Of a DNA stretch of 60,035 nt, positions 16,761 to 57,028 are shown in pieces. The stretch is from Elusimicrobiota bacterium (GTDB taxonomy: Bacteria; Elusimicrobiota; UBA8919). Under the pieces are notes generated by a model. The model ran no database searches. It was not told where the DNA came from and saw nothing but the letters and a program-made list of their open reading frames with translations. Position numbers and translations under genes: made by a program. Position 1 is the stretch's first letter; each line of letters begins with the position of its first letter. The stretch covers positions 1 through 60,035 of the forward strand of contig JAZDKR010000010.1 in NCBI GenBank assembly GCA_043802785.1. Reading direction: 5' to 3'.

Positions 16761-19700
16761 CTATTTATCCTTTGTTCCAAACTGCTTCACGATGGCAATT
16801 TCTTCATCGGTTAAGTCATAGAGTTTATATATCATCTGGTCAATTTGGCGTTCAAGTTCTCTTACTTTTTCTGATGCACCACCTGACAACGGATAGCCAT
16901 ACTGTTCGTGTATAGAAAGAATATGGTCAACAAGGTTGATAAATGGTTTTTGTTGTCGTTCGGAAATTTTAGGAATTGGAAGTTGTTCAACAAAGTATCC
17001 TGAAAGATAAATGCCTTTTTCACCTAATCTATGAACTGATTGCAATGTGTACCAATGTAACAAAAAAGAATTTGTTATTGCCTGTATGAATTTAAGATTG
17101 TTGCCTGTAATCATAAAACAAGTTTTTTGTAAATAAAATCCTTTTGGAACTAAAGCCATTTTAATTTCTTGAGCCGTCTCTGCCCACGCAATTTTCTCCT
17201 TTTCAAAATCCTCAAGGTAAGTTGCGGCACATCGTTGCAAAGCATACCATTCATAACGAATTCCTGTCTCTTCCTTATTCCTTTTTGAAAGATTTTCCTT
17301 GAATTGTAACAAATGGTTATAAACAGATGGATATTGTTTCTGAAATTCCCTTTCTGCCTTTTTTGATGCTCCTTGGATTGAACTATCATCCTGCAAAGGG
17401 AAATGCCATGGGATAAAAATCAGCCATAGTCCTGCCCATTTGTAGCAATACCTATCGATGTCTCTGCCCCTTAATATCGGTTTGATGATTTCCACAGATT
17501 TTGAGGCTTCGGCACAGAGACGCTCTTTGGTTGCAGTGTCAATAATAAATGCCTCGTTAAAGCCAGTTATTATGCCTCTGTTTATTTTTACATCCCAATT
17601 TTTAAGTGGTGTGCCTATTTTTTCTATCTTCTTTTTCAGTGCCAACACTTTATCGTCTGCCAATGTCCAGCCAGAGTCAGAAAGTTCATTCTGTTTGATG
17701 GTCTGCTGTTTCTTACTCACATATTCGTCTAGATTTTCTCCTGTGAAATCGCTATCAACATTGATATAAGGAGATGTATATTCAGGTTGCGGTTTTTCTT
17801 TTTGCAATAAAAGAATATTGGTATCTACCGTAGCGGTCTCAAATACTTTATGTCCGCCAAAGTCAATCAGGTTTATTACTTTTGTTTTTGTTTTGAAAAA
17901 GTTTCTCAATTTCTCACCATATTTTGCCCGCATCCATTTATTGCTGGAGATAAAGCAGGAAAAACGGCTCGGAGCGAGGATATTATAGGAAAGTTCGTAA
18001 AAATAGGTATAAAGGTCAGAAGTAGAGTTATACACTTCATATCCCGCTTTTTGTAGCAGTGGTTTGTATTCTTTGATTTCCTCCTGCCTGACATACGGCG
18101 GATTGGCAATTACAACATCAAAACCTTTTTTCTTATGGAATACTTCTGAGAAATACACTTCAAAATCAAACTCTTTATGACCGTCGGTAATCTGGCTGAT
18201 AATATCATCAATCTGCTTTTTGTATTTCTGTTTTTTATTAGGATTGGTTTCGTTGAACAGTAATGGTTTTAAATTTTCAAGTTCTTCAAATAATTTCCAA
18301 TTAAGCACATCCTTCCTTACGCCAAAAAGTGAATGTCCACAGACAATTTTATAATCAAGGTTAGGCAGAGGTTTAATTTGCTTGATGTCATCTTCATCTA
18401 CCACCAATGAAAGCCACAGACGAAGTTTGGCAATCTCCACAGCACTGGAGTCAATGTCAACACCGTAAAGAGATTTTTCAATACATTCACGCTTAAAATT
18501 GTAGATGGAACGAGATTCTTCGCTACGCTCAGAATGACTTTTTGATTGCTTCGTCGCTTCTGCTCCTCGCAATGACAGATAGGCAGTCAATACGTTTCTT
18601 GTCTTTACAATTTCTGTCATCATACCCACAGGGAAAGCACCACTACCAATGGCAGGGTCGCATACTTTGATATTGGCAAGTTTGTCGTCAATAATTTTTG
18701 CATTTTTGCGGATGTTTTCGGAAAGTTTGTAAGAATATGTTTTTGTTTCTTTACCCTTGGTTTCAACCATTGCTTCGTTTCCGCTGACTTGCTCGCCATA
18801 TTTGATAAGTGTTTCTATTTCCTTTCTTGATATTGATTGGTATGATTTATGCTCGGCGGTCAAAACTAACTGACCTGTTTTTGCTTTATTACCAAATGCA
18901 TCAAGTTGAGAGTCACCAACTTTTTCATATGAAATTGTTCCCTGATTCAATTCTGTGTATAAATAATTGATTAAACTCTGCTGACACATATAATGGACAA
19001 TTTCGCGTGGGGTGTAGTAAGTTCCTTTGGATTTTCTATCTTTAACTTCCAGAAGATTTTCAAAGACCTTACCTAACATTTCCGGGTCAATGGCGACTTC
19101 CTTTTCTAATGGTTCGTCTTCTTTAACGGTGAAATTATAGCGGTCAAAAATGTCTAAAATGCCATTTCCAGTGTCGCCTTCTTTAGTTTTGTAATTGTTG
19201 GAAAATAGTTCATTGGGAAAAAGTATATCCGTATGTACCCAGTTATAATTATTAATTGGATCAAAGAGTCCTCCGTTTAGGAAAGGAATTTTGCAGTCAA
19301 ACCTGCTGTAATAATCATCATCATGACTGCGGTTAATACGGAACGCTTCATAAAAAAGTGGCTCTAAAATATCATTAAAGAAATTTTTGTATTTGCAGTG
19401 TTTCTCTTCAAAAAGTTCTCGTAAGAAGTGTTTGTCTCCGGTTCCCCAGTCAGCATCTCGTTTTACACCGAACCAACCCTTTTTTTGTAGAAAGTAAAGA
19501 AAAACAATCTGTCCTAAAAGTTTTTTGGAAAAATCAATGGTATTGACGCCTTTCGCCTCAAAATCAGATTTAATTTTTTTGTCTTTCTCCATTAAATCGT
19601 CAAGTGTTTCCTTGGTCCTTAAAAAAATATCTCGGTACTTTTCAAAGAATTCCTTTGTAACTTTTTCAATGTTAAACGCCTCTTCAAATTGACTGAGGGT

Positions 19701-20243: not shown

Positions 20244-20245
20244 AA

Positions 20246-21079
20246 CTATTTCTCTGGTAGTTTTCTAATTTTTAAGGATTGTTCCAAAAAGTTGCTTTTT
20301 GAAACAATGGATTTGCCCAACCTTTTTTCAAGCCGTTTTCTTGCGTTACCAGCGATATCTCCGCCATCTTTTGCATCGGCTTTCAATTTTGGAACACCAT
20401 GCGAATCTTCAGTGCGGTGGATTTCGGTAGTCGCTCTTTCTCCCAACATTGTAAAAATCAGTTCAAAATCATCCATATGATCACGCAGGTTTTCGCGTTT
20501 TAATCCTTTGAAATTTTTATACTCCGATGGTGTAACTCCAAAAGTCGCCTTTGATATTTCTGCGGTGAGAATCTCATAATCTTTTTGCTCTTTTGCTCCG
20601 CGATTTTGCCATTCATCGGTCAGTTCTTCACGGATAGCAATGCCTCGCATTCTTTTTTCAATCCAGTCATCGGGATAACCTTTAAGTTTATAAAGCATTC
20701 TGGTTCTTTTTGTCGCAAGTTCTGGATTTTCTATTTCCTGGACTCGCTCATATCCAACTTTAGCCAGCCATCTTTTGAATGGTTCTGCTTTGGGAGACGG
20801 GATTGATTGAATGATGCGAAAAATACCTTCGGTATTCGCACAGTTTAACTTCTGTGCTCCACCTTCTGTGTCAATTGAAAGGGGGGTGGCAATTTGCCCC
20901 CACCCTTTAGAGAGTTCGAGGTCGCGTCGCCGCATATCTTTAATGTACCCTTCTGGCTGAACAGAATCGGTTAAAACAGCAACAACATCAACAATCACAA
21001 ACCACCATTCATTTTCATGAAGAGTTCTTCTTATCTGTCTTCCCTTAAACAAAGCAATTTGGGTTGATTCCATATTCAT
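20246..21079 (-). CDS. Bro-N domain protein (antirepressor-like)
   Basis: IRRTLHENEWWFVIVDVV, RIIQSIPSPKAEPFKRWLA and NLRDHMDDFELIF motifs. Confidence 0.82.
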   Translation of the reverse strand: MNMESTQIALFKGRQIRRTLHENEWWFVIVDVVAVLTDSVQPEGYIKDMRRRDLELSKGWGQIATPLSIDTEGGAQKLNCANTEGIFRIIQSIPSPKAEPFKRWLAKVGYERVQEIENPELATKRTRMLYKLKGYPDDWIEKRMRGIAIREELTDEWQNRGAKEQKDYEILTAEISKATFGVTPSEYKNFKGLKRENLRDHMDDFELIFTMLGERATTEIHRTEDSHGVPKLKADAKDGGDIAGNARKRLEKRLGKSIVSKSNFLEQSLKIRKLPEK

Positions 21080-24000
21080 TCTCCTGTTAAATACAATGAC
21101 AATATAACTTCTCTTTTCCCAAAGGTTGAGATATGTTCAACATAGTGACTTTCCAAAAGACGTTCTGGTATATGTGTTTGTAATGTTGCTAAAACTTTGA
21201 AGGGGTTCATTAAGTCCTGTTTCAGATTGTTTAATGCCTTTAGTGTTTCTTTTGTTGTTTGTTTCGGTAGTCCGCCTTCTTCAAGTTGAGTAATGACCTT
21301 TTTCAGATATAACTCCTGTTCATCTGTGAATTGTTTGGTGTTTTTAATAGTAATTTTTAAAACTCTTATCATATTTGAGGCACTATCCCGTCCTCCCATA
21401 TGCTCTGGCTTTATTATTTCTTCGGTTGTTGTAAATATAAATGCTTCTTTGTTTTTATCCAAAAGTTCATAATATTTTTCTGGTAGTTTTTCTTTTTTTT
21501 CATTGTGGTCGCTTTCAAGAAGTTTTGCAGAAGTGATAAAATCAAGTTCAACTGGGACGACAGGGTCTAAAGACCCTGTCCTACCTTGTATAATAAAAAA
21601 CTTTTGTAGTTTTCCCCGCCTGAAATATGTTAAAAGCGAATTTTCATGCTCGCTTTTCTTTTTTGCTGTGCGTGATTTTTTAGGAAGATGTTTTATTTTT
21701 TCAAATAATTCGGGATCTTTATCACGGATATTTTTTATGACCTGTAAATATTTTAGTTCGCTTTCCTCTGTTTCGTCCTCTCCTGTAAGTGTCTGTTTTG
21801 AAATCAATTTGTTAAATAATTCATGAGAACCAACAGGTTCTCCTTCCGTTAAAAGAGCAGCATCACCGCCTAATAGTGTTAAAAAAGAATGGATTTTTGA
21901 TTCTGCAATTTCTTTAAGTTTTATCTGGTTATTAGATTGTTTTGTTGGGAAAAAGTTAAAGGTATAAATCCTGTCGAATTTTGTATCAATACGGTTAATA
22001 CGACCAACTCTTTGCATCATTCTCGTTGGGTTCCAGGGAATATCATAATTGATAACAACATTTGAACGATGAAGATTGACGCCTTCGGACAAAACCTCAG
22101 TAGATACAAGCATTTGATAGTCGTCTTTTGGATGCCGTGCTTTCGCATCAAAGTTTTCAATCACTTTGTCGCGGATTGCCTCGCCGGAGCCGCCAGTAAA
22201 ACAAAGGGCAAGAGCGGGAAACTTTTCATTGATGTTTTTTGCCAGATATTCAGCAGTTTCCTTCGATTCGGTAAAGATAATCATCTTATTACTTTTCAGG
22301 AGAGGATTCTTGCCAAGTTCGTTTAAGAATTTAAGCAATTTGGGGTCCCTTGTAACATTTTGCCATTGTTCTCTAATTTGGATTAGAGTGGCAAGGTCAT
22401 TTTGTAGGATTCCCCTGAATTCTTTTTTAAAATCGCTGCTTGGGTATTTTTCAGCCTTTCCTTCATCAATCAGTATCTGGATTGCCTCATCATTATCGCC
22501 TTCCAATAACTCAAAAATTTTGTTAATGTATTTCTTGCTCACATAAACACTGCCCCTGTCAAATTCCTTGATGAACATTTCGTAAGAATGGATAAATCTA
22601 TCAATAGAATTTTTAAATGCGAAGAAACTGCTTTCCAACCTTTTTACCAGGAGGATTTTCATAAACTTCCCCATGTTTTTTTGAGCCAATTCCTCCGGTT
22701 GAGATATCTTTTCTTTAGAATAAAGCATTGGTGTGTATCTAGCATACTTGAATTTTTGTGTGATAAGTTCTATTGTCTTGTTGAAAATTTCATCTTCTTT
22801 ATCGTTGAGTTCATAGAAAAGCGGTTCTGGTTTTTCAACAATTGGGAATTTGATATTCTCTTTCTTCAAATCATCGGCAAAATATTTTTCTATCTCTGTT
22901 CTGGTTCTGCGCACCATAATATATTTTAGGATTTTCTCACGAATTTTCTGGGCGTTTTCCCTGACTATCTTAATATATTCAGCATAATCCGTTTTGCGGT
23001 CAAGTTTCTTTAACCTTTTGTTCAGTCGGTTAAAGAAACCCTCCAAATCAGGAAGGTTAGGAATGGTGCTTTTCCTGGCTTTCTGAAACAGTTTAATCTG
23101 GCTTAAAATATCTTTTGGGGAATTATTATATGGTGTTGCAGTGACAAGAATCACTCTTTTGCCCCGGCAGATTTCAGCCAACTTTTCATATGTAATATTT
23201 GTTTCCGTCCTAAATCGCTGTGCCTCATCTATGATGATATTGGTGTATTTTTCTGTTCCCCTGTCAATAACATCATCAAGTTTTCCAATAGATTCAAAAT
23301 CAGCAGATACCCTAAAATCAGAGAAAACATTAGTCCATGAGCCAGGATTTGCTTTTTCAAGAAGAATGGGTGGAGCAATTATGAGTGTTCTGCCATCAAG
23401 TTGACCAGCAAGCATTGCTGAAATATATGTTTTCCCAAGACCAACTACATCAGAAATAAAAACACCGCCATATTCTAGAAGAATTTTTTTAGCATTCAAG
23501 ACCGCTTGTTCTTGATATTCAAGTTTTTTAAATTCCTGTGGCAGATATTTGAGAAATACCTCGTCTGTCTGGCTTAACTCGTCCTTAAAATACTCGTATA
23601 AGAATTTTATGTAGAGTTGATAGGGTGTGATGTTTTGATTAAGCCATGTTTTATCCTCTACTGTCTGGATATATTTCTCGCTAACATCAACGGAATGTTC
23701 CCACAATTCTTCAAATTTCTGTTTGGCAAATTCGTAGTCAGCACGATTTTTTAACTCAACATTGAATTCAAGATTTTCAATAAGTCCTGCCTGAGTGAAA
23801 TTACTGGAGCCAGTAATAACCCTGCCAACATCTCTATCACTTTCGGTAAAAGTCATTATATAAAGTTTGGCATGGATATTTTGAGAAGGATAAACTCTTA
23901 TTTCTAATTTTTTGTTTTTGAGCCACTCTATAAATCTAATGACACCTTCTTCTACTTTTTGGTTATCATCAGAATCTTCCAATTCTTTTTCCACAAGGCA

Positions 24001-24294
24001 CTGAAATTCTTGTTTTGCCTCGGCATGCGAAAATTGAGAAGGAAGCCAGGTAGGTTCGCCTGTGGTGAACAAAGCAAATGTTTGACGGTTTGTGCTTATG
24101 CCAATAAGAATTCTGATTTTTTCGGTTCCTTCCAGAGATTTATATATTGCGTAAAAACCGCTTGTGTAAAAATAACCAACAAGACAATCAAAGAATTTTG
24201 TATCTTTTATTAAAACCTCAAATCGCTCTTTGAGATTTTGATTTGCTTCGTTTGTAATAAATGTTAAATCTGTTGTTATATTTTTAGTATTCAT
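21076..24294 (-). CDS. PLD (HKD) nuclease fused to an SF2/SNF2-like helicase
   Basis: HAKLY...GSSNFT (PLD); DVVGLGKT, DEAQ, TATP and QRVGRINR helicase motifs. Confidence 0.88.
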   Translation of the reverse strand: MNTKNITTDLTFITNEANQNLKERFEVLIKDTKFFDCLVGYFYTSGFYAIYKSLEGTEKIRILIGISTNRQTFALFTTGEPTWLPSQFSHAEAKQEFQCLVEKELEDSDDNQKVEEGVIRFIEWLKNKKLEIRVYPSQNIHAKLYIMTFTESDRDVGRVITGSSNFTQAGLIENLEFNVELKNRADYEFAKQKFEELWEHSVDVSEKYIQTVEDKTWLNQNITPYQLYIKFLYEYFKDELSQTDEVFLKYLPQEFKKLEYQEQAVLNAKKILLEYGGVFISDVVGLGKTYISAMLAGQLDGRTLIIAPPILLEKANPGSWTNVFSDFRVSADFESIGKLDDVIDRGTEKYTNIIIDEAQRFRTETNITYEKLAEICRGKRVILVTATPYNNSPKDILSQIKLFQKARKSTIPNLPDLEGFFNRLNKRLKKLDRKTDYAEYIKIVRENAQKIREKILKYIMVRRTRTEIEKYFADDLKKENIKFPIVEKPEPLFYELNDKEDEIFNKTIELITQKFKYARYTPMLYSKEKISQPEELAQKNMGKFMKILLVKRLESSFFAFKNSIDRFIHSYEMFIKEFDRGSVYVSKKYINKIFELLEGDNDEAIQILIDEGKAEKYPSSDFKKEFRGILQNDLATLIQIREQWQNVTRDPKLLKFLNELGKNPLLKSNKMIIFTESKETAEYLAKNINEKFPALALCFTGGSGEAIRDKVIENFDAKARHPKDDYQMLVSTEVLSEGVNLHRSNVVINYDIPWNPTRMMQRVGRINRIDTKFDRIYTFNFFPTKQSNNQIKLKEIAESKIHSFLTLLGGDAALLTEGEPVGSHELFNKLISKQTLTGEDETEESELKYLQVIKNIRDKDPELFEKIKHLPKKSRTAKKKSEHENSLLTYFRRGKLQKFFIIQGRTGSLDPVVPVELDFITSAKLLESDHNEKKEKLPEKYYELLDKNKEAFIFTTTEEIIKPEHMGGRDSASNMIRVLKITIKNTKQFTDEQELYLKKVITQLEEGGLPKQTTKETLKALNNLKQDLMNPFKVLATLQTHIPERLLESHYVEHISTFGKREVILSLYLTGE

Positions 24295-24777: not shown

Positions 24778-24783
24778 AAATAT

Positions 24784-25804: not shown

Positions 25805-25870
25805 TTTTTTTGCTTCGCAGGAACGACCTAAATCTTCAATCTTCTTTCCACTTTTTCTTACAGAGAACAA

Positions 25871-28977: not shown

Positions 28978-30030
28978 TCATCTCGTTAAAACCTCGTAAC
29001 CGGTTTTTGTTACCAAAACCGTGTCCTCTATACGAATGCCGAATCTATTTGGGATATAAATTCCCGGCTCAACCGTTACAATCATTCCTGCTTTTAATAC
29101 CATTTCGGATTTTGCAAAAATTGACGGCTCTTCGTGAATATCAATTCCTACTCCGTGCCCAGTTCCGTGGATAAAGTATTTCCCAAAACTATTTTTATCT
29201 ATAAAATTTCTTGCAGCAAAATCAACTTTTTTACAAGATGCACCGTCTTTAATAACGCTTATTGCTTTTTTCTGTGACTCTTTTACAATCTCAAACACAT
29301 TTTCAGCGTACCTGCTTATTTTACCTAAAAAAAATGTTCTTGTCAAGTCGGAATTATAATTCTCATAAATACAACCCAAGTCAACAAGAACTACATCGTC
29401 TTTTTGGATTTTCCTGTTTGTTGGTTTATGGTGAGGGTTCGCGGTATTTTCCCCCGATGCAACAATTATATCAAATGCAGATTTTTCGGCACCGGATTTT
29501 CTTAAAAAATATTCCAACTCGTCAGCAAGTTCTTTTTCAGTTATACCCGCTTTGAGTTTTTTCGAGGTGTATGTAATTGCTTTTTGGGAAATTTTACACG
29601 CAGTTTTTATTTTTTTAATTTCGCTTTGGTCTTTTATCTGACGAATACCTTCAATAAAATTTGAGCAACTTTTCCAAGTAGGTTCGCCTGTGGCGAAAAA
29701 CTTAACACCCTTAATCTTTTCTAATTTCTCTAAACGGGCAACTGAAATACTGTTATCAAACCCTATTTTTTTGTTTTTGTACCTTCGGAAAAATTTATCA
29801 GACGCTATCTGTATCCGCCATGGCGGACAATTTGCATACTTTTCTGCCGACGGATAATTTAATTTGGATACAACCAAAATTATATCTTTTCTGGAAACAA
29901 AAACAAAAGAATTTTCTAATCTTATGCCAGTTAGATACAAAATGTTTGACGGATTAAATGAAACAAATCCATCCAATAATTCTTTCGCAATTTTTTCCTG
30001 CAGATTTTTTATTCGCAAGTTCATTTTCAA
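28978..30030 (-). CDS. Xaa-Pro aminopeptidase (M24B)
   Basis: DLG...SDLTRT, HGTGHGVGIDIHEEP, TVEPGIY and GIRIED motifs; precedes efp. Confidence 0.93.
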   Translation of the reverse strand: MKMNLRIKNLQEKIAKELLDGFVSFNPSNILYLTGIRLENSFVFVSRKDIILVVSKLNYPSAEKYANCPPWRIQIASDKFFRRYKNKKIGFDNSISVARLEKLEKIKGVKFFATGEPTWKSCSNFIEGIRQIKDQSEIKKIKTACKISQKAITYTSKKLKAGITEKELADELEYFLRKSGAEKSAFDIIVASGENTANPHHKPTNRKIQKDDVVLVDLGCIYENYNSDLTRTFFLGKISRYAENVFEIVKESQKKAISVIKDGASCKKVDFAARNFIDKNSFGKYFIHGTGHGVGIDIHEEPSIFAKSEMVLKAGMIVTVEPGIYIPNRFGIRIEDTVLVTKTGYEVLTR

Positions 30031-36049: not shown

Positions 36050-37222
36050 TCATTCAACAATAGGCACATAAACCTTGTCAATAAGTTCCTTGTATTCCGA
36101 TTGGACATCACTGTATGTTGTGATACCACCGCCGCTTTTGTAGAAAATTTTATTGCCGATTTTTTCGAGGTATCTTATCATAACCGCACTATCCAAATTC
36201 TGCCCATCAAAAATACCAAATATACCTGTATAATATCCCCTCTCATAATTTTCAACTTCTTTAATTATTTCAACCGTTTTTTTCTTCGGGGCACCGCTTA
36301 TAGAACCCGCTGGCAAAAGTGAAAAGACCACATCACCGATTCTTTCATAGTAATTTTTTTGAAGATCACCAACAATTTCGGAACTAACCTGCAAAAGTTC
36401 GTTGTTGTGCGTAATAATTTTTTCTACATATCTGAACCTTTTCACTTTGACATTTTTTGCAACAATACCTAAATCGTTTCTTATCAAATCCACGATTGTT
36501 AAGTGTTCCGCAAACTCTTTTTTGTCGGAAATAATTTTTCTAGCAGCACCGTCTATTGCGGCATCAATGGTCCCCTTCATCGGATAAGAATATATTTTCC
36601 CGTTTTTTATTTTTACGAATGTTTCAGGTGAAAAAACCACAAGGTCATTTGTAGACCCCGAAATCCCGCTAATGCGGGCTTCGGGGTAGTTTTTGCCCCG
36701 CTGGTGCGGGACAAAAACTAATTTATATTTTGCCGTGCTGTTAAAAAAAATTTCCTTAAATGTAAGATTGGTTTCAACCCTCGTCGGAAAGGTCAGATTA
36801 ACAAGATATGAGTGCCCTTCGTAAAAATATTTTTGTATTTTATCAAACGCTTTTTTGTACTTACGGAAAGTTACGGGATATTTTCTGAAAACTATTTTTT
36901 TATCTTCGGTTTTCAAATTGCCGTCGTAGTTTTTTGTGACAGAAGTTCCAGATACTACTTTTGTCATTGCGAGGTCGCCAAAGGCGACCGTGGCAATCTC
37001 GACTTTAACACCGAGATTGCTTCGTCGTCCCTTCGGGACTCCTCGCAATGACACAGGGTCGTAGTTTTTTAATCCGTTAATATCGTATAAAATTTCATCG
37101 GACTTTATTTCAGCCAACGGCAGGATAATCGGTTTTCTTATTTCAAAATCAATAATAAACAAAAACGGGATTTTCTTCCTCCCGTAAAAATTCATTTTCC
37201 GGATTGCCGTAAAACTGTTCAT
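36050..37222 (-). CDS. pabB: Aminodeoxychorismate synthase component I
   Basis: YPMKGTID, KEFAEHLTIVDLIRNDL, LPAGSISGAPK and RGYYTG motifs; carries in-frame repeat insertions. Confidence 0.92.
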   Translation of the reverse strand: MNSFTAIRKMNFYGRKKIPFLFIIDFEIRKPIILPLAEIKSDEILYDINGLKNYDPVSLRGVPKGRRSNLGVKVEIATVAFGDLAMTKVVSGTSVTKNYDGNLKTEDKKIVFRKYPVTFRKYKKAFDKIQKYFYEGHSYLVNLTFPTRVETNLTFKEIFFNSTAKYKLVFVPHQRGKNYPEARISGISGSTNDLVVFSPETFVKIKNGKIYSYPMKGTIDAAIDGAARKIISDKKEFAEHLTIVDLIRNDLGIVAKNVKVKRFRYVEKIITHNNELLQVSSEIVGDLQKNYYERIGDVVFSLLPAGSISGAPKKKTVEIIKEVENYERGYYTGIFGIFDGQNLDSAVMIRYLEKIGNKIFYKSGGGITTYSDVQSEYKELIDKVYVPIVE

Positions 37223-44139: not shown

Positions 44140-45102
44140 ATGTCCATTCTTGTTGTTGGTTCTGTAGCATTAGATTCAATTAAAACACCTTCCGGAGAAA
44201 AAAAAGATATTCTGGGTGGGTCGGCTACATATTTTTCTTACTCTGCAAGTTTTTTTGCCCCGCCTGGCGGGATTAATCTCGTCGCAGTCGTCGGCAGTGA
44301 TTTTCCAAAAGAGCATATTGAACTTTTAAAATCAAGAAATATAAATCTTGAAGGGCTCAAAATGGTTGAGGGACAGACATTCCGGTGGAGCGGTTCTTAC
44401 GAGCATGATATGAATGAAGCAAAAACGCTTTCAACCTGTCTCAATGTGTTTGAAACATTTAAGCCGGAAATTCCCGAGTCATACAAAAACAGCGAATTCA
44501 TTTTTCTCGCCAATATAGACCCCGATTTACAGATGGATGTTTTGTCACAAATTAAAAAGCCAAAATTGATTGCTGCCGATTCAATGAATCTCTGGGTAAA
44601 AATAAAAAAACCTTCCTTGCTAAAACTTCTCTCTAAAATTGATATTTTGGTAATCAATGACGGGGAGGCACGACTCTTGACAGAGCAGTCGAGTTTAATA
44701 AAAGCAGGAAGAATAATTTTGGATTACGGTCTGAAATATGTTGTAATAAAAAAAGGGGGACACGGCTCACTATTGTTTTCCCAGAAGGGGTCTATTCAGA
44801 CAAAAGACGGATTTTTTTCGGCACCGGCATATCCGATTGAAGAGGTTTTTGACCCAACAGGCGCGGGTGATACATTCGCAGGCGGATTTTTCGGATACCT
44901 TGCCAACAGTAGGCACTCTGGAAGTGCAAAACTAAACCTACAAGATCCCACCGAGAATGATTTAAGAAAAGCGGTTATTTACGGAAGTGTTATGGCATCA
45001 TTTAATGTTGAGGATTTTTCGTTAGAAAGAATGAAACGGCTGCAACCCGCCGAAATTGAAACCCGCTACAAAAAATTCAAAGAAATAACACATTTTAGAT
45101 AA
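44140..45102 (+). CDS. PfkB-family carbohydrate/nucleoside kinase
   Basis: VVGSVALD, LGGSATY and DPTGAGDTFAGGF motifs. Start moved to ATG 44140. Confidence 0.92.
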   Translation: MSILVVGSVALDSIKTPSGEKKDILGGSATYFSYSASFFAPPGGINLVAVVGSDFPKEHIELLKSRNINLEGLKMVEGQTFRWSGSYEHDMNEAKTLSTCLNVFETFKPEIPESYKNSEFIFLANIDPDLQMDVLSQIKKPKLIAADSMNLWVKIKKPSLLKLLSKIDILVINDGEARLLTEQSSLIKAGRIILDYGLKYVVIKKGGHGSLLFSQKGSIQTKDGFFSAPAYPIEEVFDPTGAGDTFAGGFFGYLANSRHSGSAKLNLQDPTENDLRKAVIYGSVMASFNVEDFSLERMKRLQPAEIETRYKKFKEITHFR

Positions 45103-47587: not shown

Positions 47588-49273
47588 TTACAATTCAATG
47601 AAACCCCAAGGGAGAACGGATGCCGATGAATCGGCAACTACAATCTCTTTTAAGTAGTTATCCGGATTTATGTTGCATTTTGAGAAAGCATCAAGCCATT
47701 TTTCGTAGGAAAATGACTCGTTCCAGTTGTCAAATTTACAACCGTTTTTATGTGCTGCTTCCAAAACAGAACATAGTTTTTCATCACCTCTGGCAAAAAC
47801 TGCTTCAATTGTGGACATTTCAGGTTTGTGTGATTTCACTTCGGCAGGAAGTTTCTTTTTCAGATAGAGTTTTTTTTCGTTAAAATATTCAAACCCAAAA
47901 AACTTTTCTCTCTCAAAAACGGTGTGCGGTTTCGGTACAAACGGGGAAATGGTAATGTTCAGATTTAGTTGCGGTGTCTGTTTTTTTATACTTCGGACAA
48001 GTGATACAATTCCCTCAATATCCTCATTGGTTTCCGTCGGTAACCCAAGCATAAAATAAAGTTTTATGAGTCGCCAACCAGATTTATGTGCATAATTTGT
48101 CGTCTCCAAAATTTCCGCATCCGTGATAAATTTCCCAATATGTTTTCTTAACCGCTCTGTCCCCGCCTCCGGTGCAAATGTTAAAGATGTTTTTTTGAAA
48201 ACACGGGTCTTTGCCGCTAAATCCACCGATGCCGGATTGCATCTCAAAGACGGAAGTGCCACCGCCACATTTTTTGGAATACAAATTTTTAGAACATCAT
48301 CCATCAACTCGTTTATTTCCGGATAGTCAGAAGTGGATAGCGAAAGAAGAGAAATTTCGTCATAGCCGGTTGAAGCAAGTCCTTTCTCAATAATCTCCAA
48401 AATTTTTTCTTTGCTTCTTATCCGACGAGGAGAATACAATTTTGATGCCTGACAAAAAAAACAGCCCCTTGAACAGCCGCGCATTATTTCCACATTCAGA
48501 CGATTCTGCACGGTGTTCAAAAACGGAACAATCGGCTTCATTGGATATTCTGCTGTCTCCAAATCAACAACATTTTTTTTGATGAATTTTTTACCGTCGT
48601 GCACCCCATTAGAAGTATCGTGGTCCGCCTGATGCGGACCACTTCTAACGGGGTAAAACGAAGGCACATACACCGACGGAATTTCCGAAAGTTTTGATAA
48701 CAGTTCCGTCTTGTCTGTAATCTGTAATCTGTAATTTGTAATTTTTGTAATTATATCTTCCCCATCACCGATAACAAATGCATCTATAAACTCTGACAAT
48801 GGCAGAGGATTGACGCAGGCAGGACCTCCAGCAATAATCAATGGGGACTGTCCCTTGCGGACTGTCCCCATTCTATCTTTTGTTTTTAAGGGTATTTTCG
48901 CCAAATCCAAAATGTTAAGAATGTTTGTATAGCACAACTCGTGCTGAATGTTAAAACCAATAATATCAAATTCGTTAAGCGGCGTTTTTGTCTCAATAGA
49001 AAAAAGCGGAAGATTATTTTTCCTTATCAGTTCCTCCATATCCTGCTCTGGCGAGAATGCTCTTTCACAGACGATATGCCCATTTTTATTTAGGATATTG
49101 TAAAGAATTTGCATTCCAAGATTGGACATTCCGATTTCATAAAGGTCTGGAAAAACAAGACAAAACCGTAAGTGATAAGTGGTAAGTGGTAAGTGGTAAG
49201 TGGTATTCCACTCCTCACCAATATACTGTGATTGTTTTTTTACAAATGGTAAGAATTTTTTTATTGTATCCAT
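47588..49273 (-). CDS. TIGR03960-family B12-binding radical SAM protein
   Basis: FPDLYEIGMSNLG, IAGGPACVNP, EIMRGCSRGCFFC (CxxxCxxC), FAPEAGTERLR and YFMLGLPTE motifs. Confidence 0.9.
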   Translation of the reverse strand: MDTIKKFLPFVKKQSQYIGEEWNTTYHLPLTTYHLRFCLVFPDLYEIGMSNLGMQILYNILNKNGHIVCERAFSPEQDMEELIRKNNLPLFSIETKTPLNEFDIIGFNIQHELCYTNILNILDLAKIPLKTKDRMGTVRKGQSPLIIAGGPACVNPLPLSEFIDAFVIGDGEDIITKITNYRLQITDKTELLSKLSEIPSVYVPSFYPVRSGPHQADHDTSNGVHDGKKFIKKNVVDLETAEYPMKPIVPFLNTVQNRLNVEIMRGCSRGCFFCQASKLYSPRRIRSKEKILEIIEKGLASTGYDEISLLSLSTSDYPEINELMDDVLKICIPKNVAVALPSLRCNPASVDLAAKTRVFKKTSLTFAPEAGTERLRKHIGKFITDAEILETTNYAHKSGWRLIKLYFMLGLPTETNEDIEGIVSLVRSIKKQTPQLNLNITISPFVPKPHTVFEREKFFGFEYFNEKKLYLKKKLPAEVKSHKPEMSTIEAVFARGDEKLCSVLEAAHKNGCKFDNWNESFSYEKWLDAFSKCNINPDNYLKEIVVADSSASVLPWGFIEL

Positions 49274-49384
49274 ATAAAATCAGGGAGTAGGGGATAGGGA
49301 GTAGAAAGTAGTAAATCAACGATTTTAGCGAATTTACATTCGCCGCTACTAATCCCCCTATCCCCTATCCCCTATCCCCTGCCT

Positions 49385-52656: not shown

Positions 52657-52661
52657 AAAAT

Positions 52662-52749: not shown

Positions 52750-52761
52750 TCACTGCCTCTC

Positions 52762-53392: not shown

Positions 53393-54196
53393 TTATTCAA
53401 TAAATACATCCGTTAACTGAAATGCCGGTATATGCGGTTTTATGGACGCCTTTTTGAAAGGAAGATGACCCGTCTGGGTTATGGACACAATAATTCCGAT
53501 AGGAATGCCAGCCGGAAAAATATCTGATGCTGAAGATGTTACAACTTCATCGCCTATTTTTATTTCCGCATCAGCGGGGATCCAAATCATATCCAACTCG
53601 TTTGACTCTCGACCCATAACAATTCCGTCAACAGCAGCGGGTACAATACGGGCGGGCACTTTTGAAATACGGTTTGTAATGGTCAAAACTATAGAAACAT
53701 TTTTTTCAACATTTGTCAACTGTCCAACGACGCCGAATTTTCCTTTATAAAATCCGAAAACAGCCCTGTTATCCGATAAACCATCATCACTTCCCTTATC
53801 AATAATCAACGATTTATAATACTGCTGCGGCGGTTTGGCTATTATTCTGGCAATTACCGTATTACGTTTGATGTTTCTTTTGTAGCCCAAAAGTTCTGTT
53901 AGACGCTTGTTTTCAATTTCAAGTGTTTTCAATTTAACCAAATCATGCAGCAAATTCTGATTCTGGTTTTTAAGTTCCAAAACCTCCTGATGCGAGTTAA
54001 CTATTTCTTTTATATTACCACCGAGATTTCCAACGGACGAAACCACATAATTTACTTTTGAATAGGGTGTAACAACTATGTAAAATAAAAAATTCCTCAT
54101 CATTTTGACTGTGGGATTTAAGTTGAAACTCAAAATTATTATGGATACTATTAGATAAAGCGAAAGCAAAACAATGGGATTTTTCTTTATTTTCAT
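53393..54196 (-). CDS. mreC: Rod shape-determining protein MreC
   Basis: ENKRLTELL coiled coil, IIDKGSDDG and GDEVVTS...IFPAGIPIG motifs. Confidence 0.93.
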   Translation of the reverse strand: MKIKKNPIVLLSLYLIVSIIILSFNLNPTVKMMRNFLFYIVVTPYSKVNYVVSSVGNLGGNIKEIVNSHQEVLELKNQNQNLLHDLVKLKTLEIENKRLTELLGYKRNIKRNTVIARIIAKPPQQYYKSLIIDKGSDDGLSDNRAVFGFYKGKFGVVGQLTNVEKNVSIVLTITNRISKVPARIVPAAVDGIVMGRESNELDMIWIPADAEIKIGDEVVTSSASDIFPAGIPIGIIVSITQTGHLPFKKASIKPHIPAFQLTDVFIE

Positions 54197-55575
54197 TTTA
54201 ATATAACCGTTGTGATTTCTTTTGGATTAAAATACTTTTCGCAAGCGACTTTGATGTCGGAGATGGAAACTTTGTCTATATCTTCAAGATATTTTTGATC
54301 ATATTCGTAACCCTTTCCCATCGTTTCCCACCAACCGAGATACCAGCACTGTCTTTGGATTGTTCTGTGGTCTAAAAGATAAGTTCCTTTCAAGTACTCT
54401 TTTGCGTTTTTTAATTGGTCGTCGGTAATTTCAGATAACTTGATAATTTCATCAATAAATATTTTTTCCACCGTCACTACATTTTCTTTTGATGTCCCGG
54501 CATACAACACAAAATCACTTGTTTCTTTTCTTGAAGGGTAAAATGAATCGCCTTCATAGACCAATCCGCTTTTTTCGCGAAGCGCATCAAAAAGCCGTGA
54601 ACCCATTCCACCACCGAGCACACAATTGACCACTTTAACTGTAGCATATTCTTTTTGATTGATGTCTGGTGCCAAAAATCCAGAAAAAATATACGACTGC
54701 TGAAATTTGCCGGTATAAGTTTTTTTTGATGGTTTTGAAATTAGTTGGGCGACTGAAGTCGCCCCTACTTCAGTTGTTCCTATAATTTTTATATTGCCAA
54801 AATATTTTTCTACAAGTTTTTTTGCAGTTTCAAAACTAATATCACCCGCAACGCATAAAACCATATTATCCATCTTAAAATGTTTTCTGTAATTATCAGA
54901 AATCTGTGAAGCGGTAAAAGAGGAAACAGTTGCTTCATAACCTTCAATCGGCATGTGATAAGAATGATTTTTGAAAATCAGTTCGTTGAAATAATCATAA
55001 GCAACACTAAAAATATGGTCTGATTTCGACTTCATTGCAGCAATCGTTTTTGTTTTTTCTTTCTCAAATTCCTTTTCAGGAAATGTCGGGTTGTTCACAA
55101 CATCGGCAAAAATATCAAAAGCAGAAATGAAATTGTTAGCAGGTACTATCATTGAGACCTCTGAAAAATCGTTTGAACAGCCCGCCGAAATTGTTGCTCC
55201 GAGCATTTCTGTATCATTAGCAATTTTTTCGGAAGTTCTGCTGATCGTTCCCTTTGTCAATACTTGAAGCATATCATTTGTTATGCCTGCCTCTTTGTCG
55301 GTTTCAATAGCCGCCCCGCCTTTCACAAATAAAATACAACTTATAAGTCCGACTTTTTTTTCTTGATGAATAAGTGTAAAACCGTTGTCAAGCACGACCT
55401 TGCTTGTTTGAGCGTAAAGACAGGTAGCAGGGTAATAAGATAGCAGAAAGCAAGAAATACGGAAAATGAAACACCGTAGAAATGCAATAGAAATACATCG
55501 AAATACAATTGAATTTCTATGAATTTCCATTGTATTTCTATTGTATTTCCGTTTCATTTTTTTCCGTATCAGCAT
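54193..55575 (-). CDS. M16-family peptidase, non-catalytic-type subunit (start uncertain)
   Basis: Pitrilysin-fold motifs (LGGGMGSRLFDALREKSGLVY); no HxxEH motif. Confidence 0.85.
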   Translation of the reverse strand: MLIRKKMKRKYNRNTMEIHRNSIVFRCISIAFLRCFIFRISCFLLSYYPATCLYAQTSKVVLDNGFTLIHQEKKVGLISCILFVKGGAAIETDKEAGITNDMLQVLTKGTISRTSEKIANDTEMLGATISAGCSNDFSEVSMIVPANNFISAFDIFADVVNNPTFPEKEFEKEKTKTIAAMKSKSDHIFSVAYDYFNELIFKNHSYHMPIEGYEATVSSFTASQISDNYRKHFKMDNMVLCVAGDISFETAKKLVEKYFGNIKIIGTTEVGATSVAQLISKPSKKTYTGKFQQSYIFSGFLAPDINQKEYATVKVVNCVLGGGMGSRLFDALREKSGLVYEGDSFYPSRKETSDFVLYAGTSKENVVTVEKIFIDEIIKLSEITDDQLKNAKEYLKGTYLLDHRTIQRQCWYLGWWETMGKGYEYDQKYLEDIDKVSISDIKVACEKYFNPKEITTVILK

Positions 55576-55681
55576 ACAAGCATATCAACAATTTTGAGAT
55601 TGCTTCCCGAGTAGGTTCGCCTCTGGCGAAGGACTTCGTCCTCGCAATGACATTCAGTTTATTTGTAATTTGTAATTGTCT

Positions 55682-57028
55682 TCACGGTGTAATAACTACC
55701 GTTGGAATATTCGGAAAAATCAGGTATTTTGAAATCACATTTTTTATATCCTGTGGTTTTACTTTTTTTATATTTTTTATGTAACTTTCGGCGATTTTTC
55801 TGTTGCCCAGCACAGCATAAAATCCAAGTTCTTCCGCTTTGCCATCCGGTGTTTGTTCCTGCAAAAGTTTATCCCGTATAAGAAGCACCCTTGCTCTGTC
55901 AAGTTCTTCGTCGGTTACATTTTCACAAGTAAGTTGGCTAAGTTCAATTAAAACTTTATTTGATGCAGCGGATATATTTTCCGATGAACATTCCGCATAC
56001 ACATAAAATAACCCGGGTCCCTTGTGTGTGACAAATGAAGCAGAAATACCGTAGGCAATCTTGGTCTCTTCAACAAGTTTTTTATAAAGCCGTGATGCCC
56101 TGCCCGTTCCCATAACATATGAAGCAATATCAAGCGAATACTGGTCGCTACTTTTTATATTCGCCGCAGGAAAACCCATTATTATGTATGCTTGTGAAAT
56201 GTCTTTTTTGATTATTTTTTTTTGGGAAAGTTTATTTTCAGGTATTGAATTGTAAATAATTGTTCTATCTTTTTTTCTTTTTGTTTTTTTTAATCCCGCC
56301 AAGGCGGGGCTATTTTTCAGAAAACTGAACATTTCTTTTTTGTCAAAATTGCCGGAAACAACAATGAACATATTTTCGGGTATGTAAAATTTCCTGTGAA
56401 ATGATAAAAAATCATCCCGTTTTAATTTTGAAACTGTCTCCTCTGTTCCAATGACTCTTTGAGCATAGCGAAAAAAGTTACGATAGACATAACTATAAAA
56501 TTCATCAAAAAGTTGTGATTGCGGCTCGTCGTCCTTTCTTTTGATTTCTTCCAATATAATCTTTCGCTCTTTTTCAATTTCTTCTTCAGGAAATAGGGGG
56601 TTTAAAACGACATCGGTGAGAATTTCTGCGGCTTTAAGTGAATAACTGCTCGGTGCAATGGAATAAAAATATGTAAAGTCCTTTGAGGTTGCAGCGTTTA
56701 TAATTCCGCCAAATTTTTCTATTTCGGGGGCAATCTGTTTTTGGGTTTTTGTCGGTGTTCCCTTAAAAATAAGATGTTCTACGAAGTGAGAAATTCCAGA
56801 AATGTTTTTATCTTCATTCACTGCACCTGCAGAAATCCATATCTGGATTGCAGTGGTAGTTGCTGACGGGTCGGTGTCAAAAATAACTGATATGCCGTTT
56901 TCTAATTTTTTATTCTCGGTGGGATTCAAATTGGATATTAACAGGAGCGTCACGAAACAACCGCTGAGAAAAAACCTGAAAATGTTGATGAAGTTGATGA
57001 AGAAAATTGAAAAATCAATCTTATTCAC
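55682..57028 (-). CDS. M16-family zinc peptidase, catalytic subunit
   Basis: SHFVEHLIFKGT (HxxEH), INAATSKDFT and IEKERKIILEE motifs. Confidence 0.92.
   Translation of the reverse strand: MNKIDFSIFFINFINIFRFFLSGCFVTLLLISNLNPTENKKLENGISVIFDTDPSATTTAIQIWISAGAVNEDKNISGISHFVEHLIFKGTPTKTQKQIAPEIEKFGGIINAATSKDFTYFYSIAPSSYSLKAAEILTDVVLNPLFPEEEIEKERKIILEEIKRKDDEPQSQLFDEFYSYVYRNFFRYAQRVIGTEETVSKLKRDDFLSFHRKFYIPENMFIVVSGNFDKKEMFSFLKNSPALAGLKKTKRKKDRTIIYNSIPENKLSQKKIIKKDISQAYIIMGFPAANIKSSDQYSLDIASYVMGTGRASRLYKKLVEETKIAYGISASFVTHKGPGLFYVYAECSSENISAASNKVLIELSQLTCENVTDEELDRARVLLIRDKLLQEQTPDGKAEELGFYAVLGNRKIAESYIKNIKKVKPQDIKNVISKYLIFPNIPTVVITP

What the first reader, a model, noticed from the sequence alone, without database searches (positions are those of the whole stretch)
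18512..56308. Intergenic palindromic repeats inserted in-frame into many unrelated proteins (RPE-like protein domain seeding)
Seen: copies of this genome's intergenic repeats occur inside open frames. Examples: methyltransferase 18512-18577 (SLRGAEATKQSKSHSERSEESR); helicase 21559-21584 (25/26 identical to intergenic 3581-3606); helicase 24050-24069 and pepP 29678-29697 (both match 55611-55630, giving TGEPTW); pepP 29814-29827 (cf. 30036-30049); pabB 36963-37053 and 36665-36710; pfkB 44259-44271; M16 genes 54747-54768 and 56295-56308; thiC 15444-15462; rpsB tail 7803-7854. Established: Rickettsia palindromic elements insert in-frame, and GTAG- and CGTC-type REP families are linked to HuH/RAYT transposases. 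Inference: here at least five repeat families do this at high density, in housekeeping and island genes alike, which would be a genome-wide source of new peptide loops.
Basis: partly seen in the sequence, partly recalled or inferred. Interest (0 to 1): 0.82.

Follow-up and report, generated by a model that had tools for sequence, protein, structure and literature searches.

The report
Hairpin repeats inserted in-frame in genes
In this uncultured groundwater Elusimicrobiota genome, small mobile hairpin repeats have inserted into roughly one gene in ten without breaking the reading frame. This is a dense new example of the "selfish DNA inside genes" already known from Rickettsia and from some REP-rich bacteria.

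Summary
The core observation holds. Alignment with orthologues or close homologues shows in-frame extra segments, built of the genome's dispersed repeats, in these genes:
- pepP: +24 nt and +9 nt
- pabB: +45 aa and +20 aa
- PLD-SNF2 helicase: +24 nt, and 36 nt replacing 18 nt
- type IIG methylase: about +22 aa
- pfkB: +9 nt
- one M16 peptidase: +6 nt

Three examples fail in part:
- thiC has no length change.
- The other M16 gene has no net gain.
- The rpsB tail insert has no second copy in the genome.

Most elements are GTAG-tagged hairpins of the REP type: 515 in 1.56 Mb, against 38-90 for control tetramers. Two RAYT genes and one IS200-like gene are present, each flanked by such hairpins.

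The main coding invader is a 24-nt element, CCGAGTAGGTTCGCCTGTGGCGAA.
- It has about 112 copies, and about 47 lie inside 38 genes.
- It inserts without target duplication.
- It is read in all five stop-free frames and never in the stop frame.
- It is essentially confined to this species.

About 138 of 1371 ORFs carry some repeat.

Intragenic GTAG/CGTC REPs and Rickettsia RPEs are already described. I therefore rate this a new, unusually dense member of a known kind. Which enzyme mobilises the elements is an inference.

The parts
29674..29697 (+). 24-nt GTAG element CCAAGTAGGTTCGCCTGTGGCGAA inside pepP (gene on the - strand). It is read as FATGEPTW.
   Evidence: A clean 24-nt insertion absent from 15 orthologues, with no target duplication.
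24046..24069 (+). 24-nt GTAG element CCAGGTAGGTTCGCCTGTGGTGAA inside the PLD-SNF2 helicase. It is read as FTTGEPTW.
   Evidence: Absent from homologue P0002/L113, which is 90% identical at both the nucleotide and amino-acid level. The boundaries are exact, with at most 1 nt of ambiguity.
55607..55630 (+). Intergenic copy of the same 24-nt element, nested inside a GTCATTGCGAGG...GAAGCAATC module between the two M16 genes.
21546..21584 (-). A hairpin element of about 39 nt, GTAGGACAGGGTCTTTAGACCCTGTC(GTCCCAGTTGAAC), inside the helicase. It is read as GRTGSLDPVVPV.
   Evidence: 36 nt replace 18 nt relative to P0002. The family gives 21 other blastn hits in the genome, including one 100% identical over 40 nt at C65. 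An intergenic copy lies at 3581-3619.
18512..18577 (-). GTCATTGCGAGG...CGACGAAGCAATC module followed by a GTCATTCTGAGCGTAGCGAAGAATC hairpin, inside the Eco57I/MmeI-type methylase (SLRGAEATKQSKSHSERSEESR).
   Evidence: Absent from many homologues. It lies at a site where other homologues carry other repeat-derived peptides. The second half is 96% identical to a hairpin next to the GIY-YIG gene on C65.
36963..37053 (-). Complete inverted doublet of two GTCATTGCGAGG modules, forming a hairpin of about 92 nt, within a 45-aa insert in pabB.
   Evidence: Absent from 4 orthologues. DNA fold energy is -32.8 kcal/mol. Residues 62-105 fall below pLDDT 50 in an otherwise confident model.
36665..36710 (-). 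Two adjacent GC hairpins with an internal GTAG, within a 20-aa insert in pabB.
   Evidence: Absent from 4 orthologues. Fold energy is -29.4 kcal/mol. Residues 184-189 have low pLDDT.
29814..29827 (.). Palindrome TCCGCCATGGCGGA in pepP, giving a net +9 nt (PPW).
   Evidence: The family has 75 copies. The same +9 nt at the same site occurs only in genome G003.
44259..44271 (.). Palindrome CCCGCCTGGCGGG in pfkB, giving a net +9 nt (PPG).
   Evidence: It is shared in decayed form with the same-genus genome G001 and also with G003, so it is the older of these events.
56295..56308 (.). Palindrome CCCGCCAAGGCGGG in the M16 peptidase gene 55682-57028, giving a net +6 nt (PALAG).
   Evidence: It is shared with G001.
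54747..54768 (-). GTAG hairpin GTAGGGGCGACTTCAGTCGCCC in the variable linker of the M16 peptidase gene 54193-55575.
   Evidence: There is one exact second copy at C31:7887-7908. There is no net length gain relative to orthologues, so an insertion cannot be resolved.
15444..15462 (-). Heptamer run (CATCTTC, about 2.7 units) inside thiC.
   Evidence: No length change. Orthologues of two sister genera carry (CTTCCGA)x4 at the same site, and G003 carries TCCGCCGCGGCGGA there.
7803..7854 (-). 16-aa insert in the variable C-terminal tail of rpsB. It is weakly palindromic.
   Evidence: The insert is absent from orthologues. There is no other copy in the genome and only weak similarity to a variant of the 24-nt element.
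48714..48744 (.). Heptamer array (CTGTAAT-type) inside the 561-aa gene at 47588-49273.
   Evidence: Both flanks are coding in the same frame.

Best explanation
The window belongs to a groundwater Elusimicrobiota genome that is saturated with small hairpin-forming mobile repeats, mostly of the GTAG-tagged REP type. I propose that these elements move as single-stranded hairpins through HUH tyrosine transposases (RAYT or IS200-like enzymes). They land almost anywhere, including in coding DNA, and selection then removes any copy that shifts the frame, introduces a stop codon or hits an intolerant site. What remains in genes are copies whose length is a multiple of three and which are read in a stop-free frame. 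They sit mostly in linkers and loops, where they add 2 to 45 residues.

Shown directly:
- The segments are insertions relative to homologues.
- They belong to high-copy families.
- The 24-nt element inserts with exact ends and no target duplication.
- That element is confined to this species.
- RAYT genes flanked by GTAG hairpins are present.

Inferred:
- RAYTs are the enzymes that move these particular families.
- The GTCATT-headed families may instead be handled by the small GIY-YIG (Ssn-like) nuclease.
- The inserted peptides are neutral passengers rather than functional additions.
For: Insertions relative to homologues.

Family sizes are far above chance, and reversed-pattern controls give about 0.

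GTAG followed by a hairpin occurs 515 times, against 38-90 for six control tetramers.

Four Y1_Tnp genes are present, one of them a pseudogene.
- Two score as REP-associated tyrosine transposase: 136.7 and 81 bits, against a cut-off of 80.
- One scores as IS200-like.
- All are flanked by GTAG hairpins. The flanks of the C25 and C63 genes resemble the GTAGGACAGGGTCTTTAGACCCTGTC family found in the helicase.

Evidence for a selection filter:
- The 47 intragenic copies of the 24-nt element use the five open frames 10, 9, 13, 8 and 7 times, and the stop-containing frame 0 times.
- At C41 the element's TAG supplies a gene's stop codon.
- Families of 22-23 nt, or families containing TAA, are almost never intragenic: 0-3 copies each by the hairpin census, and 3/106 and 1/51 by pattern.

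Evidence for a recent burst of the 24-nt element: 99 copies here, 0 in the same-genus genome, at most 4 in any other of the 121 phylum genomes searched, and only 17 scattered single matches in the metagenome collection, which I estimate to be about chance level.

Evidence for mobility: elements are found nested inside one another.

The hosts are genuine housekeeping enzymes, with Pfam domains spanning or flanking the inserts.

In the pabB model, the two inserts contain the only segments below pLDDT 50.
Against: - No RAYT in this 78%-complete assembly is flanked by the 24-nt element itself.
- That element occurs as singletons or direct tandem copies, not as the inverted REPIN doublets expected of RAYT substrates.
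- The short GC palindromes add only 6-9 nt, less than their own 12-14 nt (or the roughly 21-nt extended unit). A simple cut-and-paste insertion does not explain them.
- thiC and one helicase site show replacement rather than pure insertion.
- The same protein sites are hit in different lineages, for example the methylase loop, and thiC, pepP and pfkB in G003. This could reflect targeting rather than random insertion followed by a filter.
- My intragenic counts rest on my own ORF model and a coding-potential test, not on curated annotation.
- Expression of the inserted peptides is not shown.
Confidence: 0.8

Rival explanations
1. The matches are chance or compositional similarities between coding DNA and intergenic repeats.
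For: The shortest examples are weak when taken alone.
- The 13-nt pfkB palindrome has 1 exact copy.
- Taken alone, a 14-nt two-unit heptamer core in thiC would be near chance by my estimate.
- The rpsB insert has no second copy.
Against: - Family counts exceed expectation by a factor of 100 or more, and reversed-pattern controls give about 0.
- The segments coincide exactly with gaps in homologue alignments.
- The thiC run is 19/19 identical to arrays elsewhere in the genome.
Confidence: 0.03
2. The 'intragenic' copies are artefacts. Either open reading frames run on through stop-poor intergenic repeats, or a metagenome bin was misassembled at its repeats.
For: - Many copies lie within the first 10% of the longest ORF: 17 of 112 copies of the 24-nt element are classed 'near end'. 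These are probably upstream of the true start.
- Di Nocera et al. 2013 raise the same caveat.
- The genome is a 93-contig bin.
Against: - For the window genes, both sides of each insert align to orthologues in one frame.
- Pfam domains span or flank the inserts in CarB, ValRS, PheT, AlaRS and aconitase.
- The both-flanks coding test passes in 927 of 1000 control positions. It also almost never passes for the TAA-containing families.
Confidence: 0.05
3. Insertion is targeted rather than random. Elements home in on pre-existing hairpins, heptamer arrays or specific structured sites, which would explain why the same protein loops are hit again and again.
For: - The 24-nt element usually sits in register inside heptamer arrays and inside other elements.
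- The same methylase loop carries at least three unrelated repeat-derived peptides in different metagenome homologues.
- The thiC site holds two different heptamer arrays and a GC palindrome in different genera.
- pepP and pfkB carry the same +9 nt at the same site in G003.
Against: - The two cleanest insertions, in pepP and the helicase, are in ordinary coding sequence with no shared flank motif.
- The five open frames are used evenly.
- Reuse of permissive loops is also what selection alone would produce.
Confidence: 0.3
4. The GTCATT-headed families (the GTCATTGCGAGG modules and the GTCATTCTGA hairpins) are mobilised or processed by a small GIY-YIG single-strand nuclease of the Ssn type, not by RAYTs.
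For: - A GIY-YIG gene of about 97 aa lies at C65:22265-22564, with two GTCAYYCTGA...GAAGRATC hairpins beside it. One of them is 96% identical to the second half of the methylase insert.
- The Ssn paper reports such genes flanked by hairpin motifs in many phyla (PMC11893778).
- Earlier scan notes proposed this link.
Against: - The published degenerate SRM pattern gives only 20 hits, against about 4 in shuffled sequence, and does not match the 146-copy GTCATTGCGAGG family.
- Ssn is described as a nuclease, not a transposase.
- Hairpins were seen on only one side of the gene.
Confidence: 0.3
5. The short GC palindromes (+6 to +9 nt in pepP, pfkB and M16) arise locally by template-switch or quasi-palindrome mutation, or by small conversion tracts, rather than by transposition.
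For: - The net gain of 6-9 nt is smaller than the 12-14-nt palindrome, so flanking bases were rewritten.
- thiC shows same-length replacement.
Against: - The palindromes share one consensus, TCCGCCnnGGCGGA, with 75 copies. They often have a common TTGAAAA or ATTAA leader and occur nested inside the 24-nt element.
- This points to a dispersed family rather than independent local events.
Confidence: 0.15

Closest known systems
Rickettsia palindromic elements (RPE-1 to RPE-8; Ogata et al. 2000/2002, recalled from my own knowledge; summarised in PMC3733652)
   Same: - Palindromic repeats inserted in-frame in many unrelated genes, essential ones included.
- Reading frames stay intact.
- Inserts are thought to sit in surface loops.
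- Several families act in one small, AT-rich genome.
   Different: - No sequence similarity, and a different phylum and lifestyle (free-living or groundwater Elusimicrobiota).
- The units here can be much smaller (24 nt, or +6 to +9 nt).
- Most are GTAG-tagged, and RAYT genes are present, whereas RPEs have no known transposase.
- The density appears high: about 10% of ORFs by my crude count.
Intragenic GTAG- and CGTC-tagged REPs (Di Nocera, De Gregorio & Rocco 2013, PMC3733652)
   Same: - A GTAG tetranucleotide next to a 6-9-bp stem.
- Many families per genome.
- The element's TAG sometimes supplies a stop codon.
- REPs lying wholly inside ORFs for known proteins such as tRNA synthetases and helicases.
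- RAYT genes flanked by REPs.
   Different: - In that survey most REPs are intergenic and intragenic ones are a minority.
- Here one family is about 42% intragenic.
- Elusimicrobiota were not among the phyla named in the passages I read.
REPIN-RAYT systems (Bertels & Rainey 2011, PMC3116915; Nunvar et al. 2010, PMC2817692)
   Same: - High-copy REP hairpins, plus single-copy Y1 HUH transposase genes flanked by their own REPs.
- The C63 RAYT is flanked by inverted GTAGGCACG... doublets.
   Different: - The main coding invader is a single 24-nt hairpin, found as singletons or direct tandem copies rather than inverted doublets.
- No RAYT flanked by it was found.
- It is not extragenic.
Cyanobacterial small dispersed repeats SDR4-6 (Elhai et al. 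2008, Genome Res 18:1484; paper not held, so recalled from memory)
   Same: - Near-identical hairpin units of 21-27 nt.
- Typically found inside heptamer tandem repeats and nested in other small elements.
- Strain-specific in distribution.
   Different: - A different phylum and a different sequence.
- I could not check what that paper says about coding insertions.
Ssn GIY-YIG single-strand nucleases with NTS/SRM hairpin repeats (PMC11893778)
   Same: - GTCAT-headed hairpin repeats at high copy.
- A GIY-YIG gene of about 95 aa with such hairpins next to it.
   Different: - The large GTCATTGCGAGG family does not fit the published SRM pattern.
- A find for 'intragenic' in that paper's text gave 0 occurrences.

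Membership tests
GTAG-tagged REP superfamily | A short (20-40 nt) imperfect palindrome present at high copy number. | tested here: met
   There are 112 copies of the 24-nt element and 515 GTAG hairpins in 1.56 Mb.
GTAG-tagged REP superfamily | A conserved GTAG tetranucleotide at one end, next to the stem. | tested here: met
   GTAG followed by a stem of at least 6 bp occurs 515 times, against 38-90 for GATG, GGTA, TGAG, CGTC, CCTG and GTGG. In the logo of the 24-nt element the GTAG is 99-100% conserved.
GTAG-tagged REP superfamily | Predominantly extragenic location. | tested here: not met
   For the 24-nt element, 47 of 112 copies (34 of 78 by the hairpin census) are internal to genes. Most other GTAG families do meet this feature.
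REPIN-RAYT system | A RAYT (Y1 HUH transposase) gene in the genome, flanked by its own REPs. | tested here: met
   The C63 and C25 genes score 136.7 and 81 bits on NF047646 (cut-off 80) and are flanked by GTAG hairpins. This is met for those families only. It is not shown for the 24-nt element.
REPIN-RAYT system | The replicative unit is an inverted REP doublet (a REPIN). | tested here: not met
   The 24-nt element occurs as singletons or direct tandem copies at 31-40-nt spacing. The GTCATTGCGAGG modules and the C63 flanks do form inverted doublets.
REPIN-RAYT system | The RAYT binds and cleaves its REP as single-stranded DNA. | not testable with these tools
   This needs biochemistry.
Rickettsia palindromic elements | In-frame insertion in functional genes, absent from orthologues. 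| tested here: met
Rickettsia palindromic elements | Sequence membership in the RPE-1 to RPE-8 consensus families of Rickettsia. | not tested
   No RPE consensus sequence was available for comparison. The phylum and the GTAG tag make membership unlikely, so the resemblance is functional only.
Ssn-related motif (SRM) repeats | A match to HGTCWYN(0-2)YYVSBRHN(0-5)WNVSBRGN(0-2)RNCYNB. | tested here: inconclusive
   There are 20 hits against about 4 in block-shuffled sequence. They belong to a small GTCATTCCCGC family. The 146-copy GTCATTGCGAGG family does not match.
Ssn-related motif (SRM) repeats | A small single-domain GIY-YIG gene flanked by the motif. | tested here: inconclusive
   The gene lies at C65:22265-22564, with two GTCAYYCTGA hairpins seen on one side only.

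The most novel reading that the evidence does not exclude
The 24-nt GTAG element may be a minimal, currently active mobile unit carried by an HUH transposase. It leaves no target duplication. Its length of eight codons and its near-absence of stop codons would make it almost neutral in coding DNA. On this reading, a burst confined to one species has performed a natural insertion scan of permissive protein loops, with at least 47 insertions in 38 genes and none in the sister species. In addition, the repeated use of the same sites by unrelated elements in different lineages (the methylase loop, thiC, pepP and pfkB) would reflect real targeting of single-stranded hairpin or array structures, and not only selection.
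Probability: 0.3. Interest if true: 0.6.

Novelty: new member of a known kind. Interest (0 to 1): 0.45.

Why it matters
This genome shows how far a small genome can tolerate selfish hairpin DNA inside essential enzymes. It also offers a clean natural data set for three questions.
- Which protein sites accept extra loops? There are exact 8-residue insertions in dozens of housekeeping proteins, with a sister species that lacks them.
- What makes a mobile element compatible with coding DNA? Length divisible by three and freedom from stop codons appear to be the requirements.
- Do RAYT-type enzymes move single REP hairpins?

For annotators of metagenome bins it is also a warning. Odd low-complexity peptides such as FATGEPTW, SLRGAEATKQS and NPPWR in otherwise conserved proteins are repeat insertions, not sequencing errors or new domains.

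Tried and rejected
- **Initial guess of organism.** I first read the heptamer arrays and the SDR-like element as signs of a Nostocales cyanobacterium. The nearest pepP loci are Elusimicrobiota MAGs, so this was rejected.
- **Elhai et al. 2008.** The paper could not be read because it is not held. That comparison therefore rests on memory.
- **Sequencing runs.** No read-level test of polymorphism, assembly or expression was possible.
- **pepP structure.** The model, built from a 5-sequence alignment, was unusable (mean pLDDT 45.2). Loop placement is shown only for pabB.
- **Published SRM pattern.** It does not capture the main GTCATT family.
- **Metagenome scans for the 24-nt element.** The exact 23-mer gave nothing. 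The looser pattern gave only 17 single matches, which I estimate to be about chance level. No donor lineage or autonomous copy was found.
- **7-nt target duplication.** I considered that the heptamers flanking the element might be 7-nt target-site duplications. The two clean coding insertions show no duplication, so this was rejected.
- **Sister-species inserts.** The sister genome G001's own pepP and M16 inserts are not GC hairpins.

Full report
**Context.** The window is contig C10 of a 1.56-Mb, 93-contig assembly with about 37% G+C. The assembly is rated 78% complete. The nearest pepP loci in public genomes are groundwater Elusimicrobiota/Elusimicrobia MAGs.
- an Eco57I/MmeI-type methylase
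- a PLD-SNF2 helicase
- an M24 peptidase (pepP)
- a chorismate-binding enzyme (pabB-like)
- PfkB
- two M16 peptidases
- ThiC
- ribosomal protein S2

**The quoted sequences and their families.** Every quoted sequence is at its stated coordinates. The repeat finder recovers the quoted pairs, for example 3581-3619 against 21546-21584 (39 nt, 90%), and the trio 24029-24075, 29657-29703 and 55590-55636. The genome-wide families are large:

| Pattern | Copies |
|---|---|
| 20-mer core GTAGGTTCGCCTGTGGCGAA | 36 exact |
| GTAGGTTCGCCnnnGGCGAA, <=2 mismatches | 112 |
| GTCATTGCGAGG | 84 exact, 146 at <=1 mismatch |
| TCCGCCnnGGCGGA, <=1 mismatch | 75 |

My own calculation puts the chance expectation below one for each pattern. 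Reversed-pattern controls across 61-121 genomes gave about zero.

**Are the coding copies insertions?** I fetched orthologues from 14-30 related genomes and aligned them. For the two defence-island genes I used close metagenome homologues instead.

| Gene | Result |
|---|---|
| pepP | Clean 24-nt block (FATGEPTW) absent from all 15 orthologues; separate +9 nt (PPW) |
| pabB | +45 aa and +20 aa, absent from four orthologues 75-78% identical, one from the same genus; 120 wider homologues are about 317-335 aa against 390 aa here |
| Helicase | Homologue P0002 (90% identical in DNA and protein) lacks exactly the 24 nt TTCACCACAGGCGAACCTACCTGG; at the second site 36 nt of hairpin replace 18 nt |
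| Methylase | About 22-residue insert missing from many homologues |
| pfkB | +9 nt; shared, already decaying, with the same-genus genome, so it is older |
| M16 gene 55682-57028 | +6 nt; also shared, in decayed form, with the same-genus genome |
| rpsB tail | +16 aa |

Three examples are weaker than claimed.
- thiC has no length change.
- M16 gene 54193-55575 shows no net gain in a variable linker. Its GTAG hairpin does have one exact second copy.
- The rpsB insert has no second copy in the genome.

**What the elements are.** Context listings show the main element as CCGAGTAGGTTCGCCTGTGGCGAA. It is a GTAG tag followed by a 6-bp stem and a short loop of 3-4 nt (folds as 6 bp with a 3-nt loop). 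It usually sits in register inside locus-specific heptamer arrays, and sometimes inside other elements.

A general scan for GTAG followed within 4 nt by a stem of at least 6 bp finds 515 sites, against 38-90 for six control tetramers. The hits fall into more than ten families. Among them are the CCNGATAAATCNGGCAACTAC and GCTCAATAAATTGAGCAACT repeats seen between genes.

The GTCATTGCGAGG family is modular. A head, a variable inner hairpin and a ...GAAGCAATC tail make one unit. Two units in inverted order make a hairpin of about 92 nt, such as the one in pabB.

A short element, TTGAAAATCCGCCGTGGCGGG, is found inserted into the loop of the 24-nt element at several loci.

**Enzymes.** The genome has four Y1_Tnp genes, one of them a pseudogene. 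NCBIfam scores two as REP-associated tyrosine transposase (136.7 and 81 bits, cut-off 80) and one as IS200-like. All are flanked by GTAG hairpins. Those beside the C25 and C63 genes have the GTAG-stem-TCTTTAGA-stem design of the helicase insert.

A GIY-YIG gene of about 97 aa on C65 has two GTCAYYCTGA...GAAGRATC hairpins beside it. One is 96% identical to the second half of the methylase insert. This echoes the Ssn nuclease and hairpin pairs described in PMC11893778. However, the published motif pattern is only weakly enriched here and misses the main GTCATT family.

**Genome-wide picture.** No gene caller was available. I built an ORF model with a codon-usage score, which gave 1371 ORFs covering 87% of the assembly. 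I counted a copy as intragenic only if 240 nt on both sides scored best in the same uninterrupted frame. Random positions in long genes pass this test 927 times in 1000.

| Class | Intragenic copies / total |
|---|---|
| 24-nt element | 47 / 112 (in 38 genes) |
| TCCGCC palindromes | 23 / 75 |
| GTCATTGCGAGG heads | 25 / 146 |
| About-40-nt GTAGGACAGGG hairpin | 7 / 13 |
| CCNGATAAATCNGG (contains TAA) | 3 / 106 |
| GCTCAATAAATTGAGC (contains TAA) | 1 / 51 |
| Heptamer arrays | 54 / 216 |

- The 47 coding copies of the 24-nt element use its five stop-free frames 10, 9, 13, 8 and 7 times. They never use the frame containing TAG.
- GTAG families of 22-23 nt are almost never intragenic, even when most of their frames are open.
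- Tandem repeats of period 7 are far in excess of other periods: 106 perfect runs, against 2-44.
- In all, about 138 of 1371 ORFs carry at least one internal repeat.
- Hosts of the 24-nt element include CarB (two copies), ValRS (three tandem copies read in three frames), PheT, glutamine synthetase III, AlaRS and an aconitase-family protein. In each case Pfam domains span or flank the insert.

**Age and spread.**
- The 24-nt element has 99 copies here at <=1 mismatch. It has none in the same-genus genome and at most four in any other of the 121 phylum genomes searched.
- The JGI metagenome collection holds only 17 scattered single matches. I estimate this to be about chance level.
- I therefore read it as a recent burst confined to this species.
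- GTCATTGCGAGG, in contrast, occurs in 25 of 61 phylum genomes, so it is old or widely exchanged.

**Structure.** An AlphaFold2 model of pabB from a 78-sequence alignment is confident overall (mean pLDDT 82.7, pTM 0.83). The only segments below pLDDT 50 are residues 62-105 and 184-189, which lie within the two inserts. The pepP model from five sequences was too poor to use.

**Mechanism.**
- Shown: in-frame insertions from dispersed families; exact ends and no target duplication for the 24-nt element at two sites; nesting of elements within one another; species specificity; and RAYT genes flanked by GTAG hairpins.
- Inferred: the elements move as single-stranded hairpins through HUH enzymes, which are known to insert without duplication. 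Selection then keeps only copies that preserve the frame, lack stop codons and land in tolerant loops.
- Unexplained:
  - The small GC palindromes add less than their own length.
  - Two sites show replacement rather than insertion.
  - The same loops are reused in different lineages.
  - No RAYT flanked by the 24-nt element was found in this incomplete assembly.

**Comparison with what is known.** Di Nocera et al. 2013 already report GTAG and CGTC REPs lying wholly inside ORFs. The counts are highest in Opitutus terrae and Rickettsia conorii, where they correspond to RPEs. The REPs often sit in repair genes and tRNA synthetases, and the element's TAG sometimes supplies a stop codon. The kind is therefore known.

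What is new here is the phylum, the number of families acting together, the 24-nt unit with about 42% of its copies in genes, and the overall load of about 10% of ORFs. Earlier notes of this scan on other pieces of the same genome reached the same general reading for other genes. I treated those notes as leads. I tested only the GIY-YIG link and the pabB case myself.

Noticed in passing
window 15420-15470, with loci L080-L087: The same thiC site holds (CATCTTC)x2.7 in this genome and (CTTCCGA)x4 in orthologues of two sister genera. G003 has a TCCGCCGCGGCGGA palindrome (+9 nt) there. Other genera have non-repetitive sequence of the same length. Heptamer arrays therefore seem able to overwrite coding sequence without changing its length.
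   Followed up: partly
window 18512-18577, with proteins P0122-P0144: The same methylase loop carries unrelated repeat-derived peptides in homologues from other metagenomes, for example SLRGAQATKQSHTGGRFADARDDN, NPPSIPPLSRGDTGGL and HPPQSPLDKWGSEGGS. This looks like an insertion hot-spot that spans lineages.
   Followed up: partly
proteins P0171 and P0208: Two methylase homologues from other organisms are listed with a Y1_Tnp (PF01797, RAYT) domain within the same protein.
   Followed up: no
whole genome; window spacers such as 10749-11006 and 59865-60033: Tandem repeats of period 7 are greatly over-represented: 106 perfect runs, against 2-44 for periods 5-11. In spacers they typically form inverted arrays, that is, hairpins built of heptamers. 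The unit sequence differs from locus to locus. They resemble cyanobacterial STRRs.
   Followed up: partly
G000 C41:2610-2629: A copy of the 24-nt element supplies the TAG stop codon of a 434-aa gene.
   Followed up: no
G000 C27:2537-2620 (ValRS gene 474-3470): Three tandem copies of the 24-nt element at 32-nt spacing (96 nt in total) are read in three different frames inside valyl-tRNA synthetase. The same gene also holds several heptamer-derived SSRVHEFTSSRV segments.
   Followed up: partly
G000 C12:33984, C19:22065, C76:13387 and C55:6039: A composite element recurs at several loci. In it, TTGAAAATCCGCCGTGGCGGG is inserted in the loop of the 24-nt element. The nested form seems to have spread as a unit.
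   Followed up: no
window 43082-43151 and 49311-49380; 25866-25935 and 26112-26181: Two pairs of 70-nt direct repeats, 100% and 99% identical, contain GTAG hairpins. One copy of the second pair overlaps the start of ORF 25241-25999.
   Followed up: no
window 16761-24294: The methylase (1160 aa) and the PLD-SNF2 helicase (1072 aa) have homologues 75-90% identical in many phyla. They look like a horizontally spread defence module that accumulated local repeats after arrival.
   Followed up: no
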